NCBI GenBank assembly: GCA_963842845.1
Contig: CAWJHZ010000005.1
Span: forward strand, 1,308 to 65,307
Origin: an uncultured Chloroflexia bacterium
GTDB taxonomy: Bacteria; Chloroflexota; Dehalococcoidia; DSTF01; JALHUB01
Length of the DNA stretch: 64,000 bases
Direction of reading: 5' to 3'
Below, piece by piece: positions 1-63,991 of the stretch (position 1 is its first letter; the number at the start of each line of letters is the position of its first letter). Position numbers and translations under genes: made by a program. The notes beneath the pieces were generated by a model. The model saw nothing but the letters and a program-made list of their open reading frames with translations. It had not been told where the DNA came from and made no database searches.

Positions 1-4
1 CCAG

Positions 5-3503: not shown

Positions 3504-3726
<223 letters not shown>

Positions 3727-29959: not shown

Positions 29960-30095
29960 AAACAGGTGAAGAATGTGGGATGCATTCATCAAGCAGTTTC
30001 CTCAATGTGAGAACTGCCCTTTTCTTGGTTTTGTGATAGATAGCATGGGTCCGTTGGAGTTCACGTTTATCTGTAAGAAAAAAGAATGTATTTAC

Positions 30096-30169
30096 GTGGA
30101 TGGCAGGATTTGAACCTGCGTACAATCGGTTAACGGCCGATTACTTGAACCTGACTCAGCTACATCCAC
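30096..30169 (-). tRNA. tRNA-like gene, anticodon GUU (Asn), with atypical C33 and a weak D-stem
   Basis: 7-bp acceptor GTGGATG/CATCCAC; T-arm GCAGG-TTCAAAT-CCTGC; anticodon arm ATCGG-CCGTTAA-CCGAT; 74 nt; no CCA encoded. Confidence 0.5.
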
Positions 30170-35200: not shown

Positions 35201-35536
35201 TTATCCCCCAACATAGGGTGTTTTTTCTTTCTCACCCTCTATTTTCATGGCTTCAGCGACATGAATCGTATACGTGTTTTTTAATTTCTGTGACCTCATT
35301 AATAGGTTAAGAATAAAATTAACTGATACCATATCATAGACAAGATTTTTCATCGTTGGGTGTCCATTGAAATTCTCTTTACATATCTTTTCAGTTTCGT
35401 CAGCAAGATGACGCATTACTTCTTGAAGAAGTTTATTCATCTTTTCAACATCAAAATCAAGGGTTTTTAAAATACTCTCATCCTGGAGTTGTTTCAGTTT
35501 TTTTTTATCTATCCCTATGTTGATTTCTTTTATCAT
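35201..35536 (-). CDS. hypothetical protein, 111 aa
   Basis: ORF only. Confidence 0.4.
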   Translation of the reverse strand: MIKEINIGIDKKKLKQLQDESILKTLDFDVEKMNKLLQEVMRHLADETEKICKENFNGHPTMKNLVYDMVSVNFILNLLMRSQKLKNTYTIHVAEAMKIEGEKEKTPYVGG

Positions 35537-36426
35537 TTATCCTCCTCGTTGAAATCTTCAATCTTTTTTGCTATTTCTTCATCTGATAATTTTCTCATTT
35601 CATCATCCCACAAAATAAGGGTTTCGTATCCTGCTTTTGAAAGAATTATTTTTCTAATTTTTTCAGTTCTTCTTGGAGGGGGAGAGAATGCTCCATCTTT
35701 ATCATGGAATGCTCTTCCAAAAACCTCTATTATTCTATTATTGGAATTATTTATAAAATCAGGATTTAAACCATTTATCCAAATACTTTTATTTCCAACA
35801 TATTTAAAAGGTAGTTTGTATTTCTTTAGAATGTTCTCGATTCTAATTTCTGGCTTTGTTTTATTGTCTCCATTTACATATGTCCATGGTTTTCGGTCTG
35901 TACAATTTTTTGATGCTTGCTTTCCAATACAGTCTTTTGTCTTGTGTAATCCTAATGAATTTGCTTTTACTTGTATTGAAGCATATCGATGATTTGGTAT
36001 CAACTCTATCAATTCTAATTTAGATGATGCGGCATAATTTTCAATTAGATTTTTCATCTCTTCAGCCATCCATGTTCTTGGATTTTTACTCCATCTAGAA
36101 AAACGTTCTATCTCACGTTGGTTAAATTTTTTTGATTTCTCAAATCCAACTCTTTTCGCTTTATGCTCAATACTTCGCATAGTTCTTCCAGGAAATAGAG
36201 ATATAAGTTCGCTTAGATATTTATCTGGATAATTGTCTCTTAAAATTTTAATTTCTTTTTTTGACCATTTATTCTTTTTTTTAAGACCATACTTATTTAT
36301 TTTTTGTTGTATGCTAGATATCGTTCTACTGGACAGTAGTCTCTGGAGTTCTTGATAGGAAGATGCTGTAGAAAAATATTTTTTTAATGTTTCTACTTCT
36401 TGTTCTTCCCAATGTTTATTTCCCAT
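35533..36426 (-). CDS. homing-endonuclease-like protein: N-terminal Myb/SANT-like helix-turn-helix repeats plus a C-terminal Vsr/PD-(D/E)XK-like nuclease
   Basis: C-terminus GLNPDFINNSNNRIIEVFGRAFHD...TLILWDDE is paralogous to 25784-26698. The N-terminus has two W...W...RT..S...K.K repeats. Confidence 0.6.
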   Translation of the reverse strand: MGNKHWEEQEVETLKKYFSTASSYQELQRLLSSRTISSIQQKINKYGLKKKNKWSKKEIKILRDNYPDKYLSELISLFPGRTMRSIEHKAKRVGFEKSKKFNQREIERFSRWSKNPRTWMAEEMKNLIENYAASSKLELIELIPNHRYASIQVKANSLGLHKTKDCIGKQASKNCTDRKPWTYVNGDNKTKPEIRIENILKKYKLPFKYVGNKSIWINGLNPDFINNSNNRIIEVFGRAFHDKDGAFSPPPRRTEKIRKIILSKAGYETLILWDDEMRKLSDEEIAKKIEDFNEEDK

Positions 36427-36461: not shown

Positions 36462-37574
36462 CTACCAAGTATTACCCGATAAAATTTGCTTATATAGGGA
36501 TAGATATTCCCTAGCCATCCTTTCATATGAAAACCACTCTGCGTGTCGTCTACAATCTTCTGGTCGTATCTCATCAATCCTTTTGATATAATACATAAAT
36601 TCTTCGTCACTGTTAGCGAAAAAACCATTGAAACCATGTACCGTTGTCTCGTTCCATCCACCAGATGGGCATACCACGGTTGGTGTTCCGCAGGCGTTTG
36701 CTTCTGGGACAATCAAGCCGAAAGGCTCTATGAAATGATTCGCTTGACCTGGGAGACCGGTATAGGTTTCTACGCTTGGCATCACGACCGCTTTCGCATT
36801 CTGGTACATCTCGAGTTTCTTCTCAAAAGGAACTGCTTTGCCGAGTTCACCAACAACTGATACTTGACTGCTTTTTGAGAGTTTCTCATTGATGAATTTG
36901 AGGTAATCAGGGTCTTGTCCGAAGCTGCCGCCAAGGATAAATCCTTTCATCTTGAGTTTATCGCAAATATCTATGAAACGATGAGCTCCTTTTGGAGGGA
37001 AAATACGGCTCACCCATAGGAGGTAATCTTGTTTCTCTTTTTTAAAAGGGTATTTTGTTAAATCAATGCCGTTCTGAACGCCCCTCCATATGCATCCCAT
37101 CGGGGGAGAAAACGTCCCATCTGGTTTTATCCATCGAAACTCTGTGAGATTCTTCGCATGGTTCTGTGAAACACCACAGAGATTTGCATTAAAAGCGGGT
37201 TTTTCTCTGAAGCCAGGGTCAGGGCCATGATGTGTTTTTATGATACGTCCGTTGCGCTCATTGTAGAGAGAATAAGGAAAATAATTCCATGAATGGTCAT
37301 GGAGAATATCTGCTTCAAGTAACGCTTTTTTCGCCTGAGGATTATCCATATACATCTTCCAAGCGTTGATTTCATCGACTGCCCCTGGTTGCCCTGCCGC
37401 ATAGATAAACCCATGCTGTGGCTGATACGAGCCCATAGGCGCAAAATGATGTACCTCGTGTCCATGGTCATCAAAATATTTCGCCAATAATCCAACTATC
37501 AATTCAAGACCAGCATACCCTTTCAAATCAGGATGTGATGCAAAGATTTGTGTGCTATATAGTGCTATTTTCAT
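36462..37574 (-). CDS. GT4-family glycosyltransferase
   Basis: AAGGAAGG RBS; MKIALYSTQ...; C-terminal FIEPFGLIVPEANACGTPTVV. Its start overlaps the endonuclease stop in an ATGA arrangement. Confidence 0.8.
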   Translation of the reverse strand: MKIALYSTQIFASHPDLKGYAGLELIVGLLAKYFDDHGHEVHHFAPMGSYQPQHGFIYAAGQPGAVDEINAWKMYMDNPQAKKALLEADILHDHSWNYFPYSLYNERNGRIIKTHHGPDPGFREKPAFNANLCGVSQNHAKNLTEFRWIKPDGTFSPPMGCIWRGVQNGIDLTKYPFKKEKQDYLLWVSRIFPPKGAHRFIDICDKLKMKGFILGGSFGQDPDYLKFINEKLSKSSQVSVVGELGKAVPFEKKLEMYQNAKAVVMPSVETYTGLPGQANHFIEPFGLIVPEANACGTPTVVCPSGGWNETTVHGFNGFFANSDEEFMYYIKRIDEIRPEDCRRHAEWFSYERMAREYLSLYKQILSGNTW

Positions 37575-38368
37575 ATTGCAACCTTCCTTAATATACATGG
37601 TTTTATGTTTTTAATCAATTCTTTCACTTCCCTATCTCTATACATCCCAATTTTATAGATGTCGCTTTTATCTTTTTCCCGTTTCTTTCGTTTTGCTTTT
37701 CTGATGGTTGGATGAAACCCTAATTCCTCAAGAAATTGCTTTATCATTGATAATGTTTTTTCATTTGAATTAATTATTTCTATAGCATAGCATCCGTTAT
37801 TATTTAGCAGAGAACCTTCAGATTCGTACATGCCTTGTATAAAAGCGAATTTAAATTTATCTTCTATTGCATTTTTTTGTATCCATTCTAACGGTGTTTT
37901 TTTATACCATTCTACAAATATTTTGCAATATGCTCTTGTTTTAAAGGCATCATTCCACTTTTCATTTTTCTTTTTCTCCGTAAAAATCCACCCACTGTGA
38001 GAGATTCCTATAGATTTTAATGAAGAAATGAATGCCTCTACAAAACATTTATCAGTGGAAGTAAGTTCTATTTTATAATGGTTACAACCATTTTTAGTAG
38101 GTTGTATGGATACACTACCATCTCCTTTTAATATTCCAAGTAAATAAAAAAGATTTTCTGATTCTTTTGGTTTCCATCCATCTACTGTATTTTCCCAATA
38201 TCTTAAATCTAATTTTGATAATGAAGTCTGGTCTGCTTGTTTGCGAATAAAAAAACCTGATTCGGAGAATCTTCGTTTCAAAGTATGTCTACTTATGTGT
38301 TCTTTTTTTGATATTTCAGATAAACTTAATCCAGATTCGTATTGGTTATATACAGATGCTATCTTCAT
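37571..38368 (-). CDS. free-standing LAGLIDADG homing endonuclease with an N-terminal helix-turn-helix
   Basis: Two motifs, LLGILKGDGSV and FAFIQGMYESEGSL. ATGA overlaps with the glycosyltransferase genes on both sides. Confidence 0.8.
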   Translation of the reverse strand: MKIASVYNQYESGLSLSEISKKEHISRHTLKRRFSESGFFIRKQADQTSLSKLDLRYWENTVDGWKPKESENLFYLLGILKGDGSVSIQPTKNGCNHYKIELTSTDKCFVEAFISSLKSIGISHSGWIFTEKKKNEKWNDAFKTRAYCKIFVEWYKKTPLEWIQKNAIEDKFKFAFIQGMYESEGSLLNNNGCYAIEIINSNEKTLSMIKQFLEELGFHPTIRKAKRKKREKDKSDIYKIGMYRDREVKELIKNIKPCILRKVAI

Positions 38369-40376: not shown

Positions 40377-40771
40377 CCTATTCTCAGATAATATTCTTTT
40401 TCTGCAGTATACATTCCATTCATGGATACATCAACATCAATAATTTTATCACTATAATTGGAGAGTATTAATCGTATTGTCTTAAAAAATGGGAAACCTG
40501 CTGGGATGTTTTGATAAACGCTTGTATATCCTGCTCCATATGTTACATCAGCAATAGTTCCATCTGTTCCAATCGCTTGTACTTTAAGACCTGTGAGAAC
40601 ATGAGCAAAAGTGCAGAGCCTAAAATCATAGACAAAAACAACACTATCTAATGGTATGTCAACATCAACAGTGATATCAGTTAATGGGGGGAAATCTATA
40701 TATTCAGAAAAATATTTATATAACTGTTGATAACTCCTTATGACGGGTTCTACGATATACTCGATGTTCAT
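40373..40771 (-). CDS. hypothetical protein, about 132 aa, preceded by the shared 40-bp leader
   Basis: ATG at 40769-40771 directly follows a leader copy identical to the one upstream of 22769-23035. Confidence 0.45.
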   Translation of the reverse strand: MNIEYIVEPVIRSYQQLYKYFSEYIDFPPLTDITVDVDIPLDSVVFVYDFRLCTFAHVLTGLKVQAIGTDGTIADVTYGAGYTSVYQNIPAGFPFFKTIRLILSNYSDKIIDVDVSMNGMYTAEKEYYLRIG

Positions 40772-40812
40772 TGAATAATCTTTTCTTCCTGTTCCTCGTG
40801 CCTCAACCGTCG

Positions 40813-49935: not shown

Positions 49936-50253
49936 TTAACTTGTCGATGTAGTTGGCGTTATCCAAGTAATGATTTTATTGAGGATGTCGTCACTTGCCC
50001 AGCCAAACCCAAAGGCTAATGCAAAGACATTTAATAACGATGTTGCAGGTATTGAAAACATCGGGAATACTAATATTGCTGCGACCCCGCCACCAATCAC
50101 AACAAGGACGAACGATAACACATATTTCACTTGGAAGTTAATTGTGTTATCATCTTTGTGTTTAAAGACATAGGGTATCGTTGTTCGCAATATACAGGCG
50201 AGCAGTATTCCAATGAACGCAACAGCCTCGGGACTTATATTTATGCCTAACAT
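49936..50253 (-). CDS. small polytopic membrane protein, 105 aa
   Basis: Conserved leader; three TM helices. Confidence 0.5.
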   Translation of the reverse strand: MLGINISPEAVAFIGILLACILRTTIPYVFKHKDDNTINFQVKYVLSFVLVVIGGGVAAILVFPMFSIPATSLLNVFALAFGFGWASDDILNKIITWITPTTSTS

Positions 50254-50425
50254 TACTTCACCATTTAAGAAAAATTGATTGTCTCTATTTAATACTTTCT
50301 AGAAAAACTTATTAAACATCAATAAAACCTGTACCAATAATAGCATTCTTTCTCAAAACAGCAGAGATACATCCAAGGGCAATACGGGTAGCAATATCTT
50401 TTCTCAGATGTTTCTTTCGCCTCCG

Positions 50426-50677
50426 TCATATTTTGTCAAACCATTCTAATATGAACCAACATCCAAATGCGATAAAAAACATGATTGTATACAATATTGC
50501 TAATTTCATAATATATTTTTGCCTAAGCTCATCGTTTTCTCTCATGGTAAAACTGTTAATCCTGGGACTTTTGGTTTGAAGTAATTCACTGGTGGATAAT
50601 TCATATTGCGGTGAGGGTTCTTTGAACAGACCATGCAATATTGTTCTTTGTTTTGGCAATGGCGGAGCATACGGCAT
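50426..50677 (-). CDS. hypothetical protein with a C-terminal TM, 83 aa
   Basis: ORF; alternative to the overlapping frame 50542-50814. Confidence 0.35.
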   Translation of the reverse strand: MPYAPPLPKQRTILHGLFKEPSPQYELSTSELLQTKSPRINSFTMRENDELRQKYIMKLAILYTIMFFIAFGCWFILEWFDKI

Positions 50678-50792
50678 TGTATCTGTGTAATGCTTTTCAT
50701 CATCGCTTGTTCTTTTTGCTGGATAAGGCTCTGTTGTTGTTTCTGTCTTCTTATTTGTTGTCGCATCTGTTCTTGTTCACGAAGATATAATG

Positions 50793-50996
50793 TCATATTA
50801 CCGTCCCGAGCCATTCCAATATTGCGTCTTTCCCTTCAAGCGATGTTCCATCCTCAAGCACAAGGATTGGTGTTCTGTTCTCATATTCTGGTGCGCCCTG
50901 TACATTAACAAATGTAAAGACTATTCCATAATGGTCTAGCATCTGTTTTGTCTCCCGACATGGTGCGCAGGTCGGGTCTCCATAATATATCAACAT
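50793..50996 (-). CDS. glutaredoxin/NrdH-like small redoxin (CxxC)
   Basis: YYGDPTCAPCRETKQ...PILVLEDGT thioredoxin-fold signature. Confidence 0.55.
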   Translation of the reverse strand: MLIYYGDPTCAPCRETKQMLDHYGIVFTFVNVQGAPEYENRTPILVLEDGTSLEGKDAILEWLGTVI

Positions 50997-51264
50997 GTTT
51001 TTCCTCCATTCACAAAGGATACCAAACGGTTTCCTTGAATTTAATATATTCGATATTCGCTTTTTCTAGTATCTTTCCTATTGATTCTATAAGCTCTGTT
51101 TTTCTTGCGTCCGTCACCATAATATCACTCGCTGTTTTAATGATTATTTTCATTGTTTTTTTCTCCTTTTTAAAAATACGGTTTCTGAGATTTGCTGAGA
51201 TGGTTTTATTACAGGCTCTAAAACAACCTGTCTGACTATCTCATATTTCTTTTTTTTCATTTTT

Positions 51265-51447
51265 TTAATATTCCTCTGGTTTTATCTCTACTAGCTCAAT
51301 GGAATATTTTTTCTGGTTTTTCATTATGATGTTAACCAGTTTTGCATCGAGATGTTTCTCAAGTTTTCGTAATGCTTTATGAAATGAATTTGTGCGTATC
51401 TCTATTAATGATTTAACCCCATCACATCTGAATAGATATGTCGTCAT
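51265..51447 (-). CDS. hypothetical protein, 60 aa
   Basis: ORF only. Confidence 0.35.
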   Translation of the reverse strand: MTTYLFRCDGVKSLIEIRTNSFHKALRKLEKHLDAKLVNIIMKNQKKYSIELVEIKPEEY

Positions 51448-51668
51448 TTTCCCTCCTTAAATGCCCCTGAGAAATATTTTTTTGCGAACTCTTGAGCGGT
51501 AAGTGTCTCCACCGGTTTCAACCCATAGTGTTTTTTCATGATATCTATGATGCATCCGAGACAATACACGATGATTGTTTTATCGTTGTAAAGTTCATAC
51601 CATGAGTTCTCCAAAGTTGCTGGATGCCCACAAGGACGCAATGGGATAAAGGGCTGCATCTCAGGCAT
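51444..51668 (-). CDS. hypothetical protein, 74 aa
   Basis: ORF only. Confidence 0.4.
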   Translation of the reverse strand: MPEMQPFIPLRPCGHPATLENSWYELYNDKTIIVYCLGCIIDIMKKHYGLKPVETLTAQEFAKKYFSGAFKEGK

Positions 51669-53474
51669 TTATACCTCCCCGAAACATATTTTCGTGTTCT
51701 CCTCAGAGCCTTGTACCTCGTATTCCATGACTATGCCATCAAGTACAAGACCTGTTTTTTTCTTTGTTTTATGGTTGAATAACACGTTAATCATGCGGTT
51801 GCTTTTGCCATCAAGCATACAGCGGATGGAATTATGACATAAAATTCCTTCTGCAACAAAAGATTCTGTTGGTTTTATCTCAATATCATATACATCTTTT
51901 TTTCCAATATATTCTATCTTTCTTATTTTTCGTAGATAAATATCGTAGTTCTTTTTTCCACCATTGACAATATATTTATTTCTCTTGTATTTTTTAATGA
52001 ATCCTATCTTTTGTAAAAATTTTTTTACAGAATTTCTTTGTTCTATAGTTAAGGTATATATCTCTTTTGGTGATTGATTGAAACCACCATTGAAACCACC
52101 AGATTGTTTTCGATGATTTATATTTGATTCGATACCCAGTTTAGATAACAATGTTTTAATTCCATAAATTAATTCCTTAGAAATTGAACATGCTGTAATA
52201 ACTGATTGTTTATGGCTAAAAGTTAAACAACCATCTCCGCTAAAATATCCTTTTAATAAGCAAGCTATATATTCATTTGGTAAAACATATACAAATGATG
52301 GTATTTTTTTTGAATCTGAATAACCGTTGAATCCAAGTTGTTTCATTATTCCAACGAGATAAAAAGATGAAAATATCACATCTCCCTTTCTAAATCTTGA
52401 TTCATTTATTTTTATTGATTTTCTATATATGTTTTGTCTTTTATTACAAAAATCTTTAATCCAATTTATAATTTCCTTGTTTCCACCTGTTGATATGTGT
52501 ATCTGTGGTCCGTCGTAACAACCATCAGCAAGCCATAAACCACAAAATGTTAGAAGATTTTTTAATTCTTTCATTATTTTTTCTTTGTATGCTTCATCAA
52601 TTGCTTCATTAATTCTCCATTTTCGCCATACTTTATTCCTTTCATCAATTAAAGCTATTTTACCTATTTTCGCAAACCAATACATTAACCCATTTAATGT
52701 ATCTCTTGAAATTTCTCCGTTTTTTTCCCTAAAGCATCTATAAAGTTCCCTGCTTGTCAAAATCTTTGCTTCATTTTCGCATAATATTTTATATAATTCT
52801 AAGGGTTTTTTGTCATGCACGGTAAACATTTTTGATTGCAAATATATATCCAATGCAGTATCAAGGTCATAATCAATTATTTCTTTATCAACGGAAGCAA
52901 CTACCTCTAAATTACTTAATTTAAGAGGGATTATCTTATTCGCTATTCCTTGTTTTTTTTCTTGACCAAACAGAGAATGGTCTTTTGTTATTTCTATCTG
53001 TTTTCCGTTATTTACTTCTATAAGATATACTTCCTTTTCACCACGATACCAACAATCTTGTATCTCACCCCATATTATTTCTGTATATGGCTGCGTCATT
53101 AATAATCTAAGATTCGTATTATTACATTTTTTCTCTTTTATTTTTGCAGTTAATACCTCTATTTTGTTTCCATTTTTAAAGCTAGTATATAATACGGATA
53201 TTTTTGTAAATTTTAATTTCCCATTTTCTTTCCAGTAAAGATTTGTATCAGCAGAAATAGAATCATCACCTGCTTTTCGACGTATTTTCAGCAATTTTTT
53301 TAACGGAACTCCTTTATCTGACCAAGCTATTGCATGGAAACCGTGCTCTGAACTTGATAATTTTACTGTTAGTTCTTTAGTAAAACCATAACGTTTGAAT
53401 ACCTTTAGACAGCGAATGAGAAACTTGATATCTCTTGTATCTAGGTCACACGTAATTCTAGTAATTTTTTTCAT
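51669..53474 (-). CDS. intein-containing protein; the extein of about 170 aa carries primase-polymerase (AEP)-like DxD and sxH motifs
   Basis: Intein blocks: TKDH (block B), two LAGLIDADG motifs (LTFCGLWLADGCYDG and LLKGYFSGDGCLTF), and C-terminal VAEGILCHN/S. The N-extein carries ITCDLDTRD and SSSEHGFHAIAW. Confidence 0.65.
   Translation of the reverse strand: MKKITRITCDLDTRDIKFLIRCLKVFKRYGFTKELTVKLSSSEHGFHAIAWSDKGVPLKKLLKIRRKAGDDSISADTNLYWKENGKLKFTKISVLYTSFKNGNKIEVLTAKIKEKKCNNTNLRLLMTQPYTEIIWGEIQDCWYRGEKEVYLIEVNNGKQIEITKDHSLFGQEKKQGIANKIIPLKLSNLEVVASVDKEIIDYDLDTALDIYLQSKMFTVHDKKPLELYKILCENEAKILTSRELYRCFREKNGEISRDTLNGLMYWFAKIGKIALIDERNKVWRKWRINEAIDEAYKEKIMKELKNLLTFCGLWLADGCYDGPQIHISTGGNKEIINWIKDFCNKRQNIYRKSIKINESRFRKGDVIFSSFYLVGIMKQLGFNGYSDSKKIPSFVYVLPNEYIACLLKGYFSGDGCLTFSHKQSVITACSISKELIYGIKTLLSKLGIESNINHRKQSGGFNGGFNQSPKEIYTLTIEQRNSVKKFLQKIGFIKKYKRNKYIVNGGKKNYDIYLRKIRKIEYIGKKDVYDIEIKPTESFVAEGILCHNSIRCMLDGKSNRMINVLFNHKTKKKTGLVLDGIVMEYEVQGSEENTKICFGEV
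51831..53135 (-). mobile_element. intein with a double-LAGLIDADG homing-endonuclease domain; approximate boundaries
   Basis: The C-terminal splice junction HN/S is well defined at 51831. The N-terminal junction is tentatively the Cys at residue 117. Confidence 0.5.
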
Positions 53475-53482
53475 AAATTATT

Positions 53483-54376
53483 TTATCTCCAAACAAAACC
53501 GTTTGAATCAATTTCTAATCCCTGTTTTTTTAGAACTTCATTTATTCTATCATTCAGATAGATATATCGGTCTAATTCATGAGATTTATATGATGATTCA
53601 TTCAAGACACGTACATATTTAATGCAGGTAAGAAAATCGTTTTCCTGTCCATGGTGAGTAGTATCGGTTTCGTAATCCATGTAAAGTGTTCTCGGAAATT
53701 CAGGGAAACGTTTTCTCAGCAGGATTTTATCTTTCACATAATCTATTGCTCCGATATGTTCAGCCCATGACATCTTGCTATATGGGGCTATTTTCCTATC
53801 TTCTTTTGGTTTTGGTCTATCGAAAAAATATTCCAATATGTTTATAATGGTGATTTCTAAGGCATTTTGCAAGAGCATAAATCGCCCATCATGAAGGAAA
53901 CCATTCGGGCTTAACTTCAAGTCATAGACTTTATCCTCAGGTTGATAATACATCTTTGGCATAGCTGATAAATATGTGCTCCTTAATTCTGCGAGAAATG
54001 GATATTCAACATCCTCTGTCGCAGTATAATTTCTTACTGCTAGATTTCTGTACGCATAATTCATGCGTTCAGCAATGAGTTTTGCTGCGGGTTTTCTGAA
54101 ATTAAAATCAATGATGACCCGCCCCCTATATTTGTTGCATTCCGCTATCGGCATGTAGTTCCTTCGTAGCCCCTCGAGTAACACCGGATGACTGGCGATA
54201 TCCTCAGATATTGTCCATCTCCATTTTCCCTCTACAACCTCCGCTGGATAGGTTTTCCCCATGTGCTCTACTTCAACATATCGTTCTATAACTGTTATTC
54301 TTCTTTTTCTTGGGAAAGCATATCCTCTTATTTTAGCAAGGATGGTTGATTCGGGTTTAATCTTTAATGCATCCAC
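53483..54376 (-). CDS. hypothetical protein, 297 aa, immediately upstream of the intein gene; possible replication-associated protein
   Basis: ORF; weak DnaQ-like exo-I-type MDYETDTT motif near the C-terminus. It ends 8 nt before the intein gene in a +1 offset. Confidence 0.4.
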   Translation of the reverse strand: MDALKIKPESTILAKIRGYAFPRKRRITVIERYVEVEHMGKTYPAEVVEGKWRWTISEDIASHPVLLEGLRRNYMPIAECNKYRGRVIIDFNFRKPAAKLIAERMNYAYRNLAVRNYTATEDVEYPFLAELRSTYLSAMPKMYYQPEDKVYDLKLSPNGFLHDGRFMLLQNALEITIINILEYFFDRPKPKEDRKIAPYSKMSWAEHIGAIDYVKDKILLRKRFPEFPRTLYMDYETDTTHHGQENDFLTCIKYVRVLNESSYKSHELDRYIYLNDRINEVLKKQGLEIDSNGFVWR

Positions 54377-54443
54377 TACTCTTTTTGGTAGCCATACCCG
54401 CCCGTAGAATGGTCGTGCTTCCCAACGGTAGATAAGATGAGCA

Positions 54444-54728
54444 TCAAACCAGAAGGTACGGTGCTGCCTGTATCTTTATCGAAATGACTTTGTTCAGGTC
54501 GAAATTCAATGGTTCCATCTGGTTCTTATAGAGGAAAACAGGGAGTCTCCCGTCTTTGCTTCTTTGACCGGTCTGTAATCGTATCCATCGTGGGTACTCA
54601 TGGAAATACCCTGGCACTTCCTCTTCCCTCTCCCGTACTGCCCCAGGTGGTAACACCTCATCAGGCAACTCAACATACAAGGGAGCACCTGTTCTTCTCC
54701 CGTTTACCTCATAGACACCGACATTCAT
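54444..54728 (-). CDS. hypothetical protein, 94 aa
   Basis: ORF only. Confidence 0.35.
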   Translation of the reverse strand: MNVGVYEVNGRRTGAPLYVELPDEVLPPGAVREREEEVPGYFHEYPRWIRLQTGQRSKDGRLPVFLYKNQMEPLNFDLNKVISIKIQAAPYLLV

Positions 54729-54951
54729 ATTCTATTGCCTCTAATGCTCTCTCCACTCTTTCAAACCAATGCTGAATATTTAACTGAATGACTCTTCTTT
54801 CTAAAGCATGGATAAGAGCATTCAGAATAATCACATTATCGGTATTGTACGCTTTTGCTATTGTATCGAAGAAATCAAATGCCTCACACATGCTTCTTAT
54901 AAACTCAGGGTCATTGATTGCTTCTTTAATGATTTCTTCTGCTGTCTTCAT
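54709..54951 (-). CDS. hypothetical protein, 80 aa
   Basis: ORF only. Confidence 0.35.
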   Translation of the reverse strand: MKTAEEIIKEAINDPEFIRSMCEAFDFFDTIAKAYNTDNVIILNALIHALERRVIQLNIQHWFERVERALEAIEYECRCL

Positions 54952-54954
54952 TAA

Positions 54955-55233
54955 TTACCTCCAACGGAAATCATAACCTCCAACTGAAACTCTAATCTCT
55001 TCTTTAAGACAATCGCAATCCGGCTTGAATGTGTGTTCATCTATTTTTTTATATTTCTTGCTACAGTAATAGCAACGTAACCTATCTCCAATAGTCGCCT
55101 CAACAAATTTTCTACATGCAGTTTCAAGACCTGTTACATGCTTTTTTCTTGGTTCGCACCACATGAGATGATATGTTAATTCTTTACAGTTGCCGCAGAT
55201 TTTCTCAATAGGCATGTGCCTCCAGTGTTTCAA
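54955..55233 (-). CDS. Cys-rich zinc-finger protein, 92 aa
   Basis: CGNC...C...C...CYYC...CDC pattern. Confidence 0.45.
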   Translation of the reverse strand: MKHWRHMPIEKICGNCKELTYHLMWCEPRKKHVTGLETACRKFVEATIGDRLRCYYCSKKYKKIDEHTFKPDCDCLKEEIRVSVGGYDFRWR

Positions 55234-55450
55234 CTTCTAATTGGGAGAATCCCTCATCAGGCAACCATTCTTCTTGAGGGTCGAGTTCTCCACCTTTTGT
55301 CTTATGCGCCTTATACCCCATGCTAAACCCTGTGAGAAACGCATGTTTCTCTTCTACACTTGGCTCAACTTGCTTTGCTTTTGTGAGACCGTTTCTCCAT
55401 TTTTTGAAATATTTTCTTCTTAATAGGATTTTTATTTTATCTCTCGTCAT
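55205..55450 (-). CDS. hypothetical protein, 81 aa
   Basis: ORF only. Confidence 0.35.
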   Translation of the reverse strand: MTRDKIKILLRRKYFKKWRNGLTKAKQVEPSVEEKHAFLTGFSMGYKAHKTKGGELDPQEEWLPDEGFSQLEVETLEAHAY

Positions 55451-55800
55451 GCTCCCTCCAATTTGAAATCTCTTTTCAACCGCATATTGAGCGCACGTTT
55501 CTCTTCATCTGACATAAAATGGTTTTGCACCCATGCCTCAAGATGCTCTTTATCAATATAGTAAAGCCTCATCCCTGAGTATTCAGTGAAAAACTTATAT
55601 TTGCAAGACGTGTTGTTCCCGATGACGACATAACGGATTTTATCTTTTTTTACCATGGTGCGAAGTCGAGAAATCAATGATGCTGTATATCCAAGTGCTT
55701 TTGATAACTCCGGCTCGGTCATTGCATCATGCGCATTGATGGTTTTTATTATCTGGTTATCTGTTTTCTTCCTATGTTTCTGTTTTGGTTTTTCGCTCAT
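55447..55800 (-). CDS. winged-helix/helix-turn-helix DNA-binding protein
   Basis: MTEPELSKALGYTASLISRLRTM helix-turn-helix segment. Confidence 0.45.
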   Translation of the reverse strand: MSEKPKQKHRKKTDNQIIKTINAHDAMTEPELSKALGYTASLISRLRTMVKKDKIRYVVIGNNTSCKYKFFTEYSGMRLYYIDKEHLEAWVQNHFMSDEEKRALNMRLKRDFKLEGA

Positions 55801-56096
55801 GTTCCGATGCTCTGTATAAATCTCAAATCTGCACGTATTTTAATGTCCAGTATTTTTATGAGGTCCATTTCATAACGGTAAATAAACACCCCGTTTTTTC
55901 TCCAGGGGAAATTAGTGAGAGGCGTTATGTCTACTCCTTCATGGGCTACAAGATACATAGGGAGATGTTTTTCTTCCGCCATATGGCAGTCATAGAGCGT
56001 TTTTTCTTTGTTGTAGTCATTATCTTTTATTACTAAGACAAACGCCTCTGCTGTTTCTAACCTCACCACCATGCCCTCATCTCTCCTTTCTGCCAA
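55797..56096 (-). CDS. hypothetical protein, 99 aa
   Basis: ORF only. Confidence 0.35.
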   Translation of the reverse strand: MAERRDEGMVVRLETAEAFVLVIKDNDYNKEKTLYDCHMAEEKHLPMYLVAHEGVDITPLTNFPWRKNGVFIYRYEMDLIKILDIKIRADLRFIQSIGT

Positions 56097-56195
56097 TCAC
56101 AGGCAAGGTGATGAAAGGATTTCGGAGAGAAAGACTAGCATCACCCTGACTGTATCGGCAAAAAAAAGAATACTATCCTATATTTATATACGTTT

Positions 56196-56441
56196 CTATT
56201 TTTTCCATAGTTTTTCCCAAAGAAGGCGCAAAGGAGTAGATGCCGTGATGGTGTGTTCTATCACATCATCTATGAAGATGTATGTTCCTACGCCAAGAAA
56301 ACCCTGGAATAAAGGAATAAGACTGACATATAGCCCATTGTTGATGTCCATGTACCAGAAGAATGCACCGAAAGCCATGAAAAATAATCCGAGGTATCCA
56401 TGATGAATCCCTCTCCAGTTAAATGGATTTTTTGGTTTCAT
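56196..56441 (-). CDS. small membrane protein, 81 aa
   Basis: Two TM helices. Confidence 0.4.
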   Translation of the reverse strand: MKPKNPFNWRGIHHGYLGLFFMAFGAFFWYMDINNGLYVSLIPLFQGFLGVGTYIFIDDVIEHTITASTPLRLLWEKLWKK

Positions 56442-56638
56442 TGTTTTTTCTTTTTCCCATCTATTTTTACTTCAAATTCAAGACCTTGTTGTTTTACTTG
56501 TTGCCATATCTCAGAGATGGTTTTTGTTATAAATGGTTTCATGATTTTGAATGCAAGCCATCCGAATATCGCGCTGGCGACAAACATCCCTGTTCCTGCA
56601 ATAAAACCTTGTGCAAAGTTTTCTAAAATGCTCATCAT
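56438..56638 (-). CDS. small membrane protein, 66 aa
   Basis: TM helix; ATGA coupling. Confidence 0.4.
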   Translation of the reverse strand: MMSILENFAQGFIAGTGMFVASAIFGWLAFKIMKPFITKTISEIWQQVKQQGLEFEVKIDGKKKKQ

Positions 56639-56964
56639 TTTTCTGCAACTCCTTCTATTTTAACAACCTCTACTTTTGATGCTTCTTGTTTTACTTCAAT
56701 CAGAGGATTAGCGGGTGGAACAGTTATTGCTTCTCCTGCGAGGATACTGTTCCCACAAAGATTAATTACTGGTGGAATCGGTTGCATCGGCATTGGTTTT
56801 AATCTCGGCATCTCACGTCCTCTTTCATCTTTGACGCTTATCCGAGCTAAAGGTGTCGCGTCACGGAATATTGTCATCTGCTGCTTCAAAAATTCTTTCT
56901 CCATCGGGTTCTTCCAGCGCATTGTCGCTGTATCCCCATGGAACCGTATTTTTATTGCCATCAA
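56635..56964 (-). CDS. hypothetical protein, 109 aa
   Basis: ORF only. Confidence 0.4.
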   Translation of the reverse strand: MMAIKIRFHGDTATMRWKNPMEKEFLKQQMTIFRDATPLARISVKDERGREMPRLKPMPMQPIPPVINLCGNSILAGEAITVPPANPLIEVKQEASKVEVVKIEGVAEK

Positions 56965-57197
56965 TCAACCATCCATACGATTATCCATTCGATTATAAAA
57001 AGCAAAATATAGAGAAATACGGATATGACTGTCATCGCTGCTGTCTGCCAAAACCCATTTGGTTTAAGAGCCATCCACAGGAAACTAATAATGAAACAAG
57101 GTATCATCATTAAAACCAGGATGAAAGAAATAAGACCAATTCCTGATAGTTTATCAAGTATTCTACCCATACATTTCGCTCTCTTTTTTCTCCTCAA
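56961..57197 (-). CDS. small membrane protein, 78 aa
   Basis: Two TM helices. Confidence 0.4.
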   Translation of the reverse strand: MRRKKRAKCMGRILDKLSGIGLISFILVLMMIPCFIISFLWMALKPNGFWQTAAMTVISVFLYILLFIIEWIIVWMVD

Positions 57198-57888
57198 GGA
57201 TGCCCATGAGGGTTTTCACGCATTTCTCTTTTTCTTCTCCATCGAAGTTCCGGCAGAGTTTATCAACCGTCCCATCACGCATCGCCATCTGAAATACATT
57301 TTTCATGAATTTCGTCCGTATTTTAGCGGCTTCCGCTGCAACCTGCTCTAACCCCTCAGGGGATTTCACTGAGAGTATCTTATGTCGTAAGTCCCGTGAT
57401 TCATTCAATGCCTCTAACGCTATTTTTCTTTCGTGACCATCAAGTGTAATCATTTTTTGTGGCGATAAATCAATGCGCTCCATGATGTTCAATTCATCTG
57501 ATGCGATGCCGAGCCGGTCTTGTACCTCGGGATGGTTGATGCCTTCTTTCCGTGCGAATCGTAACGCCTCGCTTAATGCCCCTGATGCGGTGCTGAAATG
57601 GTCTTTTGAACAGGCGAGACACGCGGTTCCTTTCTCAATCTTGCTTGTTGTTAAATCCTTTTCTGGTACTGCAATGTATTCTCTCTCTTTCTCCGGTTCT
57701 TCTTCTTTAGGATGTTGATATCTTGCTTCTTTCTGCGCATTTGCCACTATCTTTGATGCTTTCGCATAATACTCGTTTTGAAGTTCCTCGTATTTATCGC
57801 TAGTCCCTTTTAACTGAGTTTGAATAACTGTGCCAGCAAGGTTAAAAACTGCATTAAGAACTTGCATTTTAAAATCTTCAAACGCCAT
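57163..57888 (-). CDS. hypothetical protein, 241 aa
   Basis: ORF only. Confidence 0.45.
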   Translation of the reverse strand: MAFEDFKMQVLNAVFNLAGTVIQTQLKGTSDKYEELQNEYYAKASKIVANAQKEARYQHPKEEEPEKEREYIAVPEKDLTTSKIEKGTACLACSKDHFSTASGALSEALRFARKEGINHPEVQDRLGIASDELNIMERIDLSPQKMITLDGHERKIALEALNESRDLRHKILSVKSPEGLEQVAAEAAKIRTKFMKNVFQMAMRDGTVDKLCRNFDGEEKEKCVKTLMGILEEKKESEMYG

Positions 57889-58979: not shown

Positions 58980-59374
58980 AGTTTTTTTATCTCCTCTTTT
59001 ATTTTCCTTACTTGAGCATCAAGCCATTGGTATTCTTTTTCTTGTGGTGGTGAGAATGGGTCTGGTTGGATGATGCTGTAAAGATGCGGCTGGTCATAAC
59101 TAAGCCAGGTGAGTATCAACTGTGTATCAACATGTTCATCAAAATATTTCTTGAATGCATCCCCGTATGTTCCTTTCATGATGCCACCGACGCTTCTCAT
59201 CCAGCCTGGGGTTGCTCCCCATAAATCCTCCTTATCGTCAATGGCTTTCTGTAACTCTGCTGGAGTGAATTTCCCTATCGCGCCGTTAAGAAACCCACGG
59301 GCTGCACGTATGGCTATTGTTTCAAATATGTTCATTGGCTTCCTTTTCCTGTATATATTGATTGATAGCACCAA
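58976..59374 (-). CDS. hypothetical protein, 132 aa
   Basis: ORF only. Confidence 0.4.
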   Translation of the reverse strand: MVLSINIYRKRKPMNIFETIAIRAARGFLNGAIGKFTPAELQKAIDDKEDLWGATPGWMRSVGGIMKGTYGDAFKKYFDEHVDTQLILTWLSYDQPHLYSIIQPDPFSPPQEKEYQWLDAQVRKIKEEIKKL

Positions 59375-59546
59375 AACCTATTATCCATTTCCCGTCCTCA
59401 AGAATCAATACCGGTATCTCTCCAGCCCCGCTGTAGTCAAGATTTCCTGCATCCTCAAGCCTCCAATCTAATGAGGTTTTCCTGAGTAACGTCTGTGCTT
59501 GTTTACAGGAATTACATGATTCGCGTCCGTATAATATAGCGGTCAT
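59322..59546 (-). CDS. glutaredoxin/NrdH-like small redoxin (CxxC), second copy
   Basis: LYGRESCNSCKQ ... IPVLILEDGKWIIGF. Confidence 0.55.
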   Translation of the reverse strand: MTAILYGRESCNSCKQAQTLLRKTSLDWRLEDAGNLDYSGAGEIPVLILEDGKWIIGFGAINQYIQEKEANEHI

Positions 59547-62705: not shown

Positions 62706-63134
62706 TTACGCTGTTTCATTCTTTTTTAATGTCTCATTTTTTTCTCTCAGTTTTTTATTTTCTATTAAGAGAGCTTTCTTTTCACGTTCAAGCATTTGTT
62801 CCATTGTTTTTTGTGTTTTTATTAAATTGTTTTGTAAAAAAAACTGGTTTTCATATAGCGTCATGTTTTCTTCATGGAGAAGAAAGTGCTGTCTTTGGAG
62901 ATATTGACAATATGCCATGAGATAATTTATCATATCGTTTAGGCTCATAAGTCGTTTTTCTTTCATCGCTCGTATTGGTATCTCTTCCATCTTTCTGCTA
63001 AAACCATCTCGTGTTTTTTGCAATCGTTTAATCCGTCTTGCTCGTTCGGCAGTTGTTTCCTTAAAAACAGATGCGCTATGCATTGGTTTTCTTAATCCTT
63101 CTTTACTTTTTTTCTCCATAAATTCCACCACCAT
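62706..63134 (-). CDS. coiled-coil protein, 142 aa
   Basis: Heptad-rich basic protein. Confidence 0.4.
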   Translation of the reverse strand: MVVEFMEKKSKEGLRKPMHSASVFKETTAERARRIKRLQKTRDGFSRKMEEIPIRAMKEKRLMSLNDMINYLMAYCQYLQRQHFLLHEENMTLYENQFFLQNNLIKTQKTMEQMLEREKKALLIENKKLREKNETLKKNETA

Positions 63135-63991
63135 TTCTTTTTTTGAATAGGGAATAATTTATGTAGAGTAACCTGTATTTCTTCTTCTGATACTCCTTTT
63201 GATGATGCCATTTCTTTATATGCTGTTGTAATCCCTTTAATGAGCTTCATCACGTCTGGTAATTCGCAGTAGGTGAGCCATTGTGGTTTATAATCTTCTA
63301 CATGGGTTTCATTGTTTACTCTGTGGATGCTGAGGGCGAGAGCGGATTCCATGCCACGGTGTTCTTTGAGAAGCAGGATGTTGATATGTTGTGTGAATTT
63401 TATGAGAGGTAATGCTTTTATGTCAGTTTCTAATTCAATGGTATTTGATTTTTTGTACCCCAGCATTTTTTCTTCTGGTGTGAGAAATATCTTAGGCATA
63501 TTGAACTGATGGATGAGAAAGTAGAGCACAGCGCAGATGTGTTTACAAAGCATCGCACTGTTATCCCGATAATGGCTCATGATATGGTCTTGGCATGTGC
63601 AATCCACGTAGAGGTCAGCGATATATTCTTCCCGTTCATATAAACGCTGTGGTAATGTCTCAGGTAAATAATTTTTGATGATGATAGTATAGTTGTTTTT
63701 CTCTGATTGTACTACCGCATGGACATCTCCGCCTCGATGTGTCGTCACTGTATTCTTGATGATTGCTTTATTGCGATATAGCTCCAGCCCTTTTGTTACT
63801 CTACGGTCATCAATGAGTTTATGTACCTCCTGGAGGTCTCTTCGTTTCTGGTAGTGTGCTACATTTAAGATTGCCTTATACCAGTACCTGGTCGATATTT
63901 CGTGAGGTGATTGAAAGACTACGGGGATGACATTCTTTCTGCTCTGTGGTTTGGTTTCCTTTTTCGTCAAAATGATATACTGTTTTCTCAA
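63092..63991 (-). CDS. SWIM zinc-finger domain protein
   Basis: CxC-x(n)-CxH signature: DCTCQDHIMSHYRDNSAMLCKHICAV. Confidence 0.5.
   Translation of the reverse strand: MRKQYIILTKKETKPQSRKNVIPVVFQSPHEISTRYWYKAILNVAHYQKRRDLQEVHKLIDDRRVTKGLELYRNKAIIKNTVTTHRGGDVHAVVQSEKNNYTIIIKNYLPETLPQRLYEREEYIADLYVDCTCQDHIMSHYRDNSAMLCKHICAVLYFLIHQFNMPKIFLTPEEKMLGYKKSNTIELETDIKALPLIKFTQHINILLLKEHRGMESALALSIHRVNNETHVEDYKPQWLTYCELPDVMKLIKGITTAYKEMASSKGVSEEEIQVTLHKLFPIQKKKWWWNLWRKKVKKD

What the first reader, a model, noticed from the sequence alone, without database searches (positions are those of the whole stretch)
51669..54376. Intein with a double-LAGLIDADG nuclease inside a small protein carrying primase-polymerase-like motifs, next to a gene with an exonuclease-like motif
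The 601-aa ORF has canonical intein blocks: TKDH, two LAGLIDADG motifs and a terminal HN followed by Ser. The flanking extein is only about 170 aa. It contains ITCDLDTRD (DxD) and SSSEHGFHAIAW (sGxHxh), which resemble motifs I and II of archaeo-eukaryotic primase/PrimPol catalytic domains. Inteins normally lodge in replication or repair enzymes, so this may mark the element's replication module. The upstream ORF (53483-54376) ends 8 nt before it in a +1 offset and carries an MDYETDTT DnaQ-like motif. The pair could be one frameshifted replication protein.
Basis: partly seen in the sequence, partly recalled or inferred. Interest (0 to 1): 0.65.

Follow-up and report, generated by a model that had tools for sequence, protein, structure and literature searches.

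The report
Intein splitting a miniature primase-like protein
A 477-residue self-splicing intein with a homing nuclease sits inside a 124-residue protein of an uncultivated archaeal virus-like element. The host protein belongs to a large unannotated family that carries part of the catalytic motif set of archaeal/eukaryotic-type primase-polymerases and also occurs in archaeal viruses with no known replication enzyme.

Summary
The intein is real and canonical. ORF 51669-53474(-), 601 aa, is a 124-aa host protein (aa 1-71 and 549-601) interrupted by a 477-aa Ser1...His-Asn/Ser+1 intein with a double-LAGLIDADG nuclease. Thirty intein-less homologues of about 124 aa, up to 86% identical over full length, fix the junction at AGDD|SISADT...CHN|SIRC.

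The primase-polymerase idea is partly supported. The extein family has 304 clusters, mostly about 100 aa, and includes SH1 ORF41. It matches NrS-1-type PrimPol profiles over motifs I and II (hhalign E 2.5e-6; shuffles score at most 18 against 40). Named weak hits in three HMM libraries include primases in each, and in PHROGs and Pfam they are the most recurrent. However, the N-terminal AEP module is absent and motif III does not align, so it is an AEP-like mini-domain rather than a shown primase.

The exonuclease and frameshift ideas fail. MDYETDTT is not conserved. The upstream gene is a separate, conserved 414-aa partner of unknown fold. It is broken elsewhere, by one extra base at 54455/54456 that an independent assembly lacks.

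The parts
51669..53474 (-). Precursor ORF of 601 aa plus stop: N-extein, intein, C-extein
   Evidence: ORF list. Pfam Intein_splicing and LAGLIDADG_3. An identical 601-aa gene is present in independent assembly L004.
53262..53474 (-). N-extein, aa 1-71. Carries motif I ITCDLD (53439-53456), the Ser-rich loop plus motif II SSSEHGFH (53334-53357), and AGDD (53262-53273) immediately before the splice site.
   Evidence: Alignment with 30 intein-less homologues. Conservation over 139 members: D12, H47 and R65 invariant; D10, G45, D70 and D71 at 90% or more. Coordinates.
51831..53261 (-). Intein, aa 72-548 (477 aa). Block A SISADTNLYWKENG 53220-53261; block B EITKDHSLF 52968-52994; winged-helix-like insert about 52641-52760; LAGLIDADG motif 1 52509-52553; LAGLIDADG motif 2 52224-52268; block F 51846-51893. 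Block G ILCHN ends at 51831 (the ILCHN|S string spans 51828-51845). GC is 27.5% against about 40% in the flanks.
   Evidence: The same insertion site and a homologous intein occur in P0064, P0086 and P0099.
51672..51830 (-). C-extein, aa 549-601. Starts with the +1 Ser and carries the conserved R74, D78, R83 and VLF..K positions (extein numbering).
53483..54728 (-). Upstream partner gene, 414 aa when one base is removed. In the window it is split into a 94-aa ORF (54444-54728) and a 297-aa ORF (53483-54376).
   Evidence: Homologues are 404-432 aa. P0196 (414 aa) is encoded intact in L004. Removing one C restores P0196 exactly.
54455..54456 (.). Site of the single extra base (GG on the + strand, TACC on the coding strand) that breaks the 414-aa gene
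   Evidence: L004 is 99.97% identical to window 49987-57685, with one gap, located here.
53475..53482 (-). 8-nt spacer between the stop of the 414-aa gene and the ATG of the intein-bearing gene. It is not a frameshift site.
   Evidence: The arrangement is identical in L004 (4202/4211). The two genes are separate in L001, L008, L011 and L017.
53657..53680 (-). MDYETDTT, the supposed DnaQ-like motif. It is not conserved.
   Evidence: In alignment A2 this region reads YLSF-TSAGEG, ISY-DAEGEG, ISY-HEI and ISY-GEI in other members, and none of its residues is among the invariant columns.

Best explanation
The 601-aa ORF encodes a precursor. A canonical class-1 intein (Ser72 nucleophile, TxxH block B, His-Asn C-terminus, Ser+1) carrying an apparently intact double-LAGLIDADG homing endonuclease is inserted directly after the invariant GDD of a 124-aa host protein.

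Shown by sequence:
- Removing residues 72-548 recreates, residue for residue, the uninterrupted protein found in many related elements.
- The host protein belongs to a large, unannotated family of about 100-aa proteins (phrog_25650; SH1 ORF41, PH1 ORF35, HHIV-2 protein 30, HCIV-1 ORF36).
- It is predicted to fold as a beta-alpha-beta-beta-alpha ferredoxin/RRM-like unit (pLDDT above 90 for residues 1-80). This unit carries the hhhDhD motif, a Ser-x-Ser loop and the GxH motif of NrS-1-type primase-polymerases, followed by a family-specific GDD..R..D..R..VLF..K segment.

Inferred:
- The protein is a metal-dependent nucleotidyl-transferase derived from, or ancestral-like to, the AEP catalytic module.
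- It acts as the small catalytic subunit of a two-protein replication-initiation module. Its partner is the product of the translationally adjacent upstream 414-aa gene, whose C-terminal 200-residue domain is the conserved part.
- The intein and the neighbouring free-standing endonuclease genes are selfish elements homing into this conserved gene.
- The break in the upstream gene at 54455/54456 is an assembly error or a strain polymorphism. It is not biology linking the two ORFs.
For: Intein:
- Pfam hits.
- Exact junction from 30 intein-less homologues, up to 86% identity and 100% coverage.
- The spliced sequence matches phrog_25650 continuously (2.9e-7), against 0.0013 for the unspliced ORF.
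- All splicing blocks and both LAGLIDADG acidic residues are present.
- Three further alleles carry a homologous intein at the same site.
- Intein GC is 27.5% against 40% in the flanks.

AEP-like extein:
- 304 clusters at 50% identity match at E up to 1e-3.
- Conservation over 139 members centres on D10, D12, G45, H47, R65, D70, D71, R74 and D78.
- hhalign against the NrS-1-like PrimPol profile gives E 8.9e-5, or 2.5e-6 for the trimmed core. The score is 40.4, against 11.3 +/- 2.2 (maximum 18.4) in 200 column shuffles.
- The same tool scores two accepted AEP families against each other at only E 0.022.
- The aligned serines are the NrS-1 S108 and S110. [quoted passage not shown]
- Weak recurrent named hits include AEP-TOTE and BT4734-like_N (Pfam), phrog_3022/1829/8643 'DNA primase', and PrimPol_Db and PriS (NCBIfam).
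- The AF2 model has pLDDT above 90 for residues 1-80 with an RRM-like topology.
- Foldseek finds AFV1 ORF144 and HHIV-2 protein 30 at E 1.5-4e-4. The LigD polymerase domain appears among ferredoxin-like PDB hits with probability 0.82.

Partner gene:
- A homologous large gene lies immediately upstream in L001, L008/9, L011/12 and L017.
- The same large-then-small, 4-nt-overlap arrangement occurs in SH1, PH1, HHIV-2 and HCIV-1.
Against: - No enzymatic evidence exists for any member of the family.
- No Pfam, NCBIfam or PHROG primase model reaches significance for the window protein itself.
- Profile searches against PDB sequences find nothing.
- Foldseek against the PDB gives only generic ferredoxin-like matches at E above 0.02.
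- Only 43 columns (motifs I-II) align to PrimPol. The PrimPol N-terminal module (about 70 residues before motif I) has no counterpart, and motif III (E139-x-Y...R145-Y146) does not align.
- In the model GDD lies between two helices, not on a strand.
- Concatenating the partner's C-terminus to the small protein did not extend the alignment.
- The partner has no detectable relative of known function and only its N-terminal half is modelled confidently.
- The large neighbours in the sphaerolipoviruses, and in the distant locus L018, are not detectably homologous to it.
Confidence: 0.5

Rival explanations
1. The extein family is an RRM/ferredoxin-like protein whose Asp/His cluster serves another chemistry, such as a metal-dependent nuclease or phosphoesterase, or pure DNA/RNA binding. 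On this view its DxD/SxSGxGxH similarity to PrimPols is convergent, or a relic without polymerase function.
For: - The protein is only about 95-124 aa and lacks the AEP N-terminal module and a recognisable motif III.
- The best PDB fold matches are ACT, ferredoxin-like and de novo designed domains.
- No curated AEP model passes its threshold.
Against: - The match covers two motifs in register with correct spacing, including the Ser-x-Ser loop specific to NrS-1-type enzymes. It is far above the shuffled controls and stronger than between two true AEP families.
- Primase models recur among the weak named hits in all three independent libraries.
Confidence: 0.25
2. The AEP catalytic domain is split between the two genes. 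The C-terminal domain of the 414-aa protein, which ends ...D-x-N-G-F-V-W, would supply the missing N-terminal module, and the small protein would supply the RRM-like module. The pair would then be functionally 'one replication protein', though not through a frameshift.
For: - The C-terminal 200-residue domain of the large protein is the part conserved with the small gene, whereas N-terminal domains vary (L017).
- The genes are adjacent or overlapping.
- The string NGFVW + 8-10 aa + RITxDLD resembles the PrimPol GLGFVL + 8 aa + FIDLD (sequence inspection).
- The partner's C-terminal half models poorly on its own.
Against: - hhalign of the large-protein family against the PrimPol profile finds nothing (E 0.71).
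- Concatenated pairs do not extend or improve the PrimPol alignment (scores 33.3 to 35.7).
- In L001 a 340-aa endonuclease gene separates the two genes.
Confidence: 0.15
3. One reading: the 297-aa ORF and the 601-aa ORF are one replication protein with an exonuclease domain, broken by a sequencing frameshift at 53470-53490.
For: The two ORFs are 8 nt apart on the same strand in different frames. A frameshift does exist in this neighbourhood, but about 1 kb upstream.
Against: - An independent assembly has the same stop/8-nt/ATG arrangement.
- Thirty homologues of the small protein start at the same Met as stand-alone proteins of about 124 aa.
- Homologues of the large protein end at the same ...GFVW(xx).
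- In L001 another gene lies between them.
- MDYETDTT is not conserved.
- There are no exonuclease hits in Pfam, PHROGs or PDB sequence searches.
Confidence: 0.02

Closest known systems
NrS-1 phage primase-polymerase and its stand-alone relatives of about 165 aa (Pfam PF09250 Prim-Pol; AEP superfamily)
   Same: - Motif I hhhDhD at the end of a strand.
- About 27-28 residues containing one helix and one strand.
- A Ser-Pro/Ser-Ser-Gly-x-Gly-x-His loop and strand.
- The profile-profile alignment places D10/D12, S40/S42, G45 and H47 on NrS-1 D78/D80, S108/S110, G113 and H115.
- Neither has a zinc finger.
   Different: - The family lacks the roughly 70-residue N-terminal module.
- It lacks the E139-x-Y...R145-Y146 motif III region and the helix-bundle domain.
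- It has instead an invariant R65...GDD..R..D..R..VLF..K tail.
- It is 95-124 aa, against 165 or more.
SH1 ORF41 / PH1 ORF35 / HHIV-2 putative protein 30 / HCIV-1 ORF36 (phrog_25650, function unknown)
   Same: - True homologues: hhalign probability 97%, E 5e-11; tblastn 5e-4.
- Same motif set.
- Same position directly downstream of, and overlapping, a gene of about 400 aa.
   Different: - The halovirus proteins are 157-186 aa with an extra C-terminal helical tail.
- They have no intein.
- Their upstream neighbour is not detectably related to the 414-aa family.
Archaeal LAGLIDADG inteins (PI-PkoII of the Thermococcus kodakarensis DNA polymerase, 2cw7; archaeal V-ATPase subunit A inteins, 7qsu/7qss)
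   Same: Hint splicing blocks A, B, F and G, and a double-LAGLIDADG endonuclease inserted in the Hint domain. Sequence matches at E 6e-4 to 1.4e-3.
   Different: - New host protein and new insertion site (after GDD of a 124-aa protein).
- Ser rather than Cys at both nucleophile positions.
- An extra winged-helix-like insert of about 100 residues, shared only with allele P0064.
- The intein is almost four times longer than its host.
AFV1 ORF144, AFV2 ORF116 and other lipothrixvirus proteins of unknown function
   Same: Closest predicted structures in the viral library: Foldseek E 1.5e-4 to 2.5e-3, probability 1.00.
   Different: The evidence is structure prediction only. Sequence relationship and motif conservation were not tested here.

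Membership tests
Intein (Hint domain, class 1) with LAGLIDADG homing endonuclease | In-frame insertion whose precise removal restores the uninterrupted host protein | tested here: met
   The spliced sequence aligns end to end with 30 intein-less homologues, with no gap at D71|S72.
Intein (Hint domain, class 1) with LAGLIDADG homing endonuclease | N-terminal Cys/Ser nucleophile, block B TxxH, C-terminal His-Asn, and +1 Cys/Ser/Thr | tested here: met
   S72, T164-K-D-H167, H547-N548 and S549. Pfam PF14890 scores 61.3 bits against a cut-off of 35.8.
Intein (Hint domain, class 1) with LAGLIDADG homing endonuclease | Two LAGLIDADG motifs, each with the catalytic acidic residue | tested here: met
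   GLWLADGCY and GYFSGDGCL. PF14528 scores 61 bits against a cut-off of 22.5.
Intein (Hint domain, class 1) with LAGLIDADG homing endonuclease | Protein splicing and DNA cleavage activity | not testable with these tools
   Requires expression of the precursor and a cleavage assay on the intein-less GDD-S allele.
Archaeo-eukaryotic primase (AEP) / PrimPol superfamily | Motif I hhhDhD/E (metal ligands; definition from PMC5862659) | tested here: met
   I-T-C-D10-L-D12. D12 is invariant and D10 is at 90% or more in 139 members. It aligns to NrS-1 D78/D80.
Archaeo-eukaryotic primase (AEP) / PrimPol superfamily | Motif II sxH (nucleotide binding) | tested here: met
   G45-F-H47, with H47 invariant. 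It aligns to NrS-1 G113-L-H115, with S40/S42 on S108/S110 (PMC8718748).
Archaeo-eukaryotic primase (AEP) / PrimPol superfamily | Motif III hD/E on a strand downstream of motif II | tested here: inconclusive
   Conserved D70-D71 lie 23 residues after H47. They do not align to NrS-1 E139 and sit between helices in the model.
Archaeo-eukaryotic primase (AEP) / PrimPol superfamily | Two-module catalytic domain, with an N-terminal module preceding motif I | tested here: not met
   Only 9 residues precede motif I. The conserved core starts at profile position 2-8.
Archaeo-eukaryotic primase (AEP) / PrimPol superfamily | Significant match to a curated AEP model or a solved AEP structure | tested here: inconclusive
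   No hit passes a curated cut-off. Sub-threshold primase hits recur in 3 libraries. hhalign to the PrimPol profile gives E 2.5e-6 over 43 columns. The Foldseek LigD PolDom match has E 0.22 and probability 0.82.
Archaeo-eukaryotic primase (AEP) / PrimPol superfamily | Primase and/or polymerase activity | not testable with these tools
   Biochemistry is needed.
DnaQ-like 3'-5' exonuclease (upstream ORF) | Conserved Exo I D-x-E motif and DEDD fold | tested here: not met
   The MDYETD residues vary or are absent in 15 homologues. No exonuclease hit appears in Pfam, PHROGs, PDB sequences or Foldseek.
Single gene disrupted by a frameshift (297-aa + 601-aa ORFs) | Homologues encode one continuous protein across the junction | tested here: not met
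   The genes are separate in all six related loci examined, and the junction is identical in the independent assembly.

The most novel reading that the evidence does not exclude
The 95-124-aa family would be a free-standing, RRM-module-only primase-polymerase and the smallest AEP-type enzyme. Working with a variable upstream partner, it would be the long-missing replication-initiation enzyme of archaeal viruses for which no polymerase or primase has been found: alphasphaerolipoviruses such as SH1, and possibly lipothrixviruses such as AFV1. It could also represent the minimal or ancestral form of the AEP catalytic core.
Probability: 0.3. Interest if true: 0.85.

Novelty: new variant of a known kind. 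Interest (0 to 1): 0.62.

Why it matters
Inteins mark functionally critical sites of essential information-processing proteins. Here one sits directly after an invariant GDD in a tiny, unnamed protein, and at least three other mobile nucleases target the same gene in related elements.

That protein family is widespread in metagenomes (304 clusters at 50% identity). It also occurs in cultivated haloarchaeal viruses. The literature states that no canonical DNA polymerase motif could be found in HCIV-1 and that SH1 is thought to replicate by protein priming (PMC4958249). The papers searched on these viruses never mention a primase.

If the AEP-like motif set is catalytic, three things follow:
- It gives a directly testable candidate for how these viruses start DNA synthesis.
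- It defines a new minimal architecture for the AEP superfamily.
- It provides an intein-less GDD-S homing site for studying intein spread among archaeal viruses.

If the motif set is not catalytic, the result is still a clean new intein allele, a corrected gene model and a named assembly error.

Tried and rejected
- Junction at residue 116 (reader): rejected in favour of D71|S72 on the homologue alignment.
- DnaQ motif: rejected because it is not conserved.
- Frameshift at 53470-53490: rejected. The real single-base indel is at 54455/54456.
- Profile-to-sequence searches of both families against PDB sequences: nothing.
- Single-sequence hhalign against pRN1 ORF904 and NrS-1: only short motif II matches.
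- A shallow pRN1-type profile aligned motifs I and II in register but was not significant (E 0.068).
- Foldseek of the 414-aa model against the PDB: only small beta-barrel fragments, nothing at E below 1e-3.
- An AbrB/MazE-like reading of the partner's LxhxhP..hLP segments: E 0.073 against one MazE-like sequence, not significant.
- Relationship of SH1 ORF42 and the other sphaerolipovirus large neighbours to the 414-aa family: none.
- Split-AEP test by concatenation: no gain.
- P-loop in HMGKTY: rejected because K/T are not conserved and there is no upstream Gly.
- RdRp-like reading of DxD...SG...GDD: set aside. GDD is not in a beta-hairpin in the model and the profile evidence points to AEP.
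- Pattern scans of GTDB genomes and IMG/VR found no confirmed relatives.
- The element has no DNA or capsid-protein match in the phage collection, so host and virus family remain unknown.
Full report
**1. The observation**

The minus strand of 51669-53474 carries a 601-aa ORF. It matches Pfam Intein_splicing (E 1.2e-16) and LAGLIDADG_3 (E 1.3e-16). The 297-aa ORF 53483-54376(-) ends 8 nt before the ATG and contains MDYETDTT. So the raw observation holds. The N-terminal junction and the extein length needed correction.

**2. The junction**

I read block A as SISADTNLYW, starting at Ser72, which gives a 71 + 53 = 124-aa extein.
- This spliced sequence retrieved 30 proteins of 99-153 aa. The best is 86% identical over 100% of its length.
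- In the alignment there is no gap at D71|S72. The flanking AGDD and IR..LD are among the most conserved columns.
- The spliced sequence matches phrog_25650 continuously (2.9e-7). The unspliced ORF matches only its N-terminal piece (0.0013).
- The intein is therefore aa 72-548 (window 51831-53261) and the exteins are 53262-53474 and 51672-51830.
- All splicing residues are present: Ser1, T-K-D-H, the block F Asp, His-Asn and Ser+1. So are both LAGLIDADG acidic residues.
- Its closest solved relatives are archaeal inteins: V-ATPase subunit A and PI-PkoII, E about 1e-3.
- Its DNA is 27.5% G+C against about 40% around it. Three free-standing endonuclease genes elsewhere in the window are similarly low, at about 30%.

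**3. The host family**

An exhaustive profile search found 304 clusters (at 50% identity) at E up to 1e-3. Most are stand-alone proteins of 90-125 aa.
- Three further members (594, 492 and 500 aa) carry a homologous intein at exactly the same site (AGDD|S[IV]S[AE]D...CHN|S.R).
- Other members have a LAGLIDADG or HNH endonuclease fused or inserted next to the gene.
- In locus L001 a free-standing LAGLIDADG gene sits just upstream.
- The gene is thus a repeated target of homing elements, which usually indicates a conserved, important sequence.
- Over 139 diverse members, D12, H47 and R65 are invariant. T8, D10, G45, D70, D71, R74, D78, L88, F89 and K92 are conserved at 90% or more.
- tblastn and hhalign show that SH1 ORF41, PH1 ORF35, HHIV-2 protein 30 and HCIV-1 ORF36 are members.

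**4. Is it primase-polymerase-like?**

Direct scans of the window protein find no named family. Profile-to-sequence searches of the PDB find nothing.

Scanning all 139 members at permissive thresholds turns up primase models in every library.
- Pfam: AEP-TOTE (4 members) and BT4734-like_N (2), the most recurrent families listed.
- PHROGs: phrog_3022 and phrog_1829 'DNA primase' (9 and 6 members) and phrog_8643 'DNA polymerase/primase' (4) are the only recurrent annotated families.
- NCBIfam: PrimPol_Db (1) and PriS (2), but unrelated enzymes such as S-ribosylhomocysteine lyase and aspartate kinase recur as often or more.

I then built a profile of 42 relatives of the NrS-1 phage PrimPol domain, several annotated PF09250.
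- hhalign against the family gave E 8.9e-5 (probability 60%) over 43 columns.
- With the family trimmed to its 98 core columns it gave E 2.5e-6 (probability 89%, score 40.4). Two hundred column-shuffled controls scored 11.3 +/- 2.2, with a maximum of 18.4.
- The alignment is in register for motif I (D10/D12 on D78/D80), the Ser-x-Ser loop (S40/S42 on S108/S110) and motif II (G45/H47 on G113/H115).
- As a calibration, the NrS-1-like and pRN1-like profiles are both accepted AEPs. They match each other only at E 0.022 with the same tool. The mini-family aligns to the shallow pRN1 profile in the same register, but not significantly (E 0.068).

The AlphaFold model has pLDDT above 90 for residues 1-80 and is a beta-alpha-beta-beta-alpha unit. 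DxD lies at the end of strand 1 and His at the start of strand 3.
- Foldseek against the PDB gives only generic ferredoxin-like hits. The LigD polymerase domain (an AEP) appears at probability 0.82 but E 0.22.
- Against viral models the best hits are AFV1 ORF144, a betalipothrixvirus protein and HHIV-2 protein 30 (E 1.5-4e-4).

**5. Limits of that similarity**

- Nothing beyond motifs I-II aligns.
- Only nine residues precede motif I, so the N-terminal AEP module is absent.
- Motif III (hD/E; definition in PMC5862659) has no aligned counterpart. Instead the family has R65...GDD..R..D..R..VLF..K, and in the model GDD lies between two helices.

I therefore describe the protein as an AEP-like mini-domain. 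It works, at best, like the catalytic half of a PrimPol. It does not pass the membership test for a complete AEP domain.

**6. The upstream gene**

Homologues of the 297-aa ORF are 404-432 aa.
- Their first 95 or so residues match the neighbouring 94-aa ORF 54444-54728(-).
- An independent assembly (L004, 7.7 kb) is 99.97% identical to window 49987-57685. It differs by one mismatch and one gap: the window has TACC where L004 has TAC, at 54455/54456. L004 encodes an intact 414-aa protein.
- Deleting one C from the window restores that protein exactly.
- L004 has the same stop, 8-nt spacer and ATG before the 601-aa gene.
- In L008/L009 and L011/L012 the two genes overlap by 19 and 11 nt. In L017 they are 4 nt apart. 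In L001 a 340-aa endonuclease gene lies between them.
- Hence there are two genes and no frameshift between them.

MDYETDTT is not conserved. No exonuclease or any other named family is found by Pfam, PHROGs, PDB-sequence profile search or Foldseek.

The AlphaFold model is confident only for the beta-rich N-terminal 230 residues. In L017 the partner is 320 aa and shares only the C-terminal 200 residues or so (E 2e-39). These carry the motifs YRNxxVRNYTAT, YPFLxExRATY, CIKYVRxxNE and GFVW. That domain is therefore the conserved companion of the small protein.

The alphasphaerolipoviruses show the same layout, a gene of about 400 aa overlapping the small gene by 4 nt. Their large proteins are not detectably related. 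In a more distant locus (L018) the neighbours differ.

**7. Mechanism proposed**

Shown:
- A canonical intein with a nuclease interrupts a 124-aa protein directly after its invariant GDD.
- The protein carries PrimPol motifs I and II on an RRM-like fold.
- It is encoded next to a conserved partner.

Inferred:
- After splicing, the small protein binds divalent metal through D10/D12, probably with D70/D71.
- It binds a nucleotide triphosphate through S40/S42/H47 and the conserved arginines.
- It catalyses nucleotidyl transfer (priming or short extension) in complex with the partner, which would supply DNA binding.

I put about 0.5 on this. The rest is split among a non-polymerase catalytic or binding role (0.25), a split AEP shared by the two genes (0.15), and other or undetermined readings.

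**8. Context and novelty**

- Window 42-61 kb is syntenic with metagenomic contigs L001 and L003.
- It consists mostly of small ORFs without known families, plus methyltransferases, glycosyltransferases and several homing endonucleases.
- There is no DNA match in the phage collection, no protein match there for the 278-aa ORF or the 414-aa partner, and no confirmed relative in GTDB genomes or IMG/VR.
- Related contigs come from hydrothermal-vent and sediment metagenomes. The element is an uncultivated, presumably archaeal, virus or plasmid.
- The papers I could search on sphaerolipoviruses do not mention a primase. They state that no canonical polymerase motif was found in HCIV-1 (PMC4958249). 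The survey of new AEP families does not mention these viruses or a protein this small (PMC5862659).

I rate the intein as a new member of a known kind. I rate the host family as a new variant of a known kind: an AEP-like mini-domain.

Noticed in passing
window 1-3700: The first 3.6 kb or so is 65-79% G+C and encodes an MMPL-family transporter fragment (2117-3433 -). Composition then drops abruptly to 30-40% G+C, which looks like a chimeric join or a concatenation of unrelated sequences.
   Followed up: partly
window 54455-54456: A single extra base (TACC against TAC) splits a 414-aa gene into 94-aa and 297-aa ORFs. An independent assembly of a 99.97% identical sequence lacks it.
   Followed up: yes
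window 11339-17143 (-): A 1934-aa ORF built from long tandem repeats: 213 nt x 3.4 copies at 98% identity, and a periodicity of about 654 nt over 12884-14609. It has extreme GC and AT skew and no informative Pfam hit.
   Followed up: partly
window 37571-38368 (-), 25784-26698 (-), 35533-36426 (-): Three further free-standing homing-endonuclease-type genes: LAGLIDADG, NUMOD3-containing, and HNH/D5-like. Each is about 30% G+C against about 40% background, like the intein (27.5%).
   Followed up: partly
window 23028-23070 and 40764-40806: A 43-nt direct repeat (95% identical) brackets a 17.7-kb block of sugar-modification genes (two GT4 glycosyltransferases, several methyltransferases, UDP-glucose dehydrogenase, epimerase) and tRNA-Asn (30095-30169 -). 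The DegT-type aminotransferase (20467-21597) lies just outside the repeat. This may be an inserted gene cluster.
   Followed up: no
window 50793-50996 (-) and 59322-59546 (-): Two small glutaredoxin-like ORFs with a C..C motif, paralogous to each other and conserved in related contigs L001, L003 and L011.
   Followed up: no
window 63092-63991 (-): A 299-aa ORF with a SWIM-type CxC...CxH zinc-finger signature and no Pfam hit at E up to 1e-3.
   Followed up: no
P0070 (387 aa homologue); L001 8979-10001; P0062, P0072, P0066: The same small gene is hit by other mobile nucleases in related elements: an HNH-like insertion a few residues after GDD with no intein signature, a free-standing LAGLIDADG gene between the large and small genes, and LAGLIDADG or HNH domains fused upstream.
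   Followed up: partly
L017 3644-4606; L018 1-835: In L017 the partner protein keeps only the C-terminal 200-residue domain of the 414-aa family behind a different N-terminus. In the distant locus L018 the small gene lies on a contig that also encodes a PriX-domain protein and a Rad51/RadA-like protein.
   Followed up: partly
L011 6473-7744, L012 2386-3657, L001 10798-11361: IS200/IS605-type genes (OrfB/TnpB-like, Y1 transposase) lie directly downstream of the small gene in related contigs.
   Followed up: no
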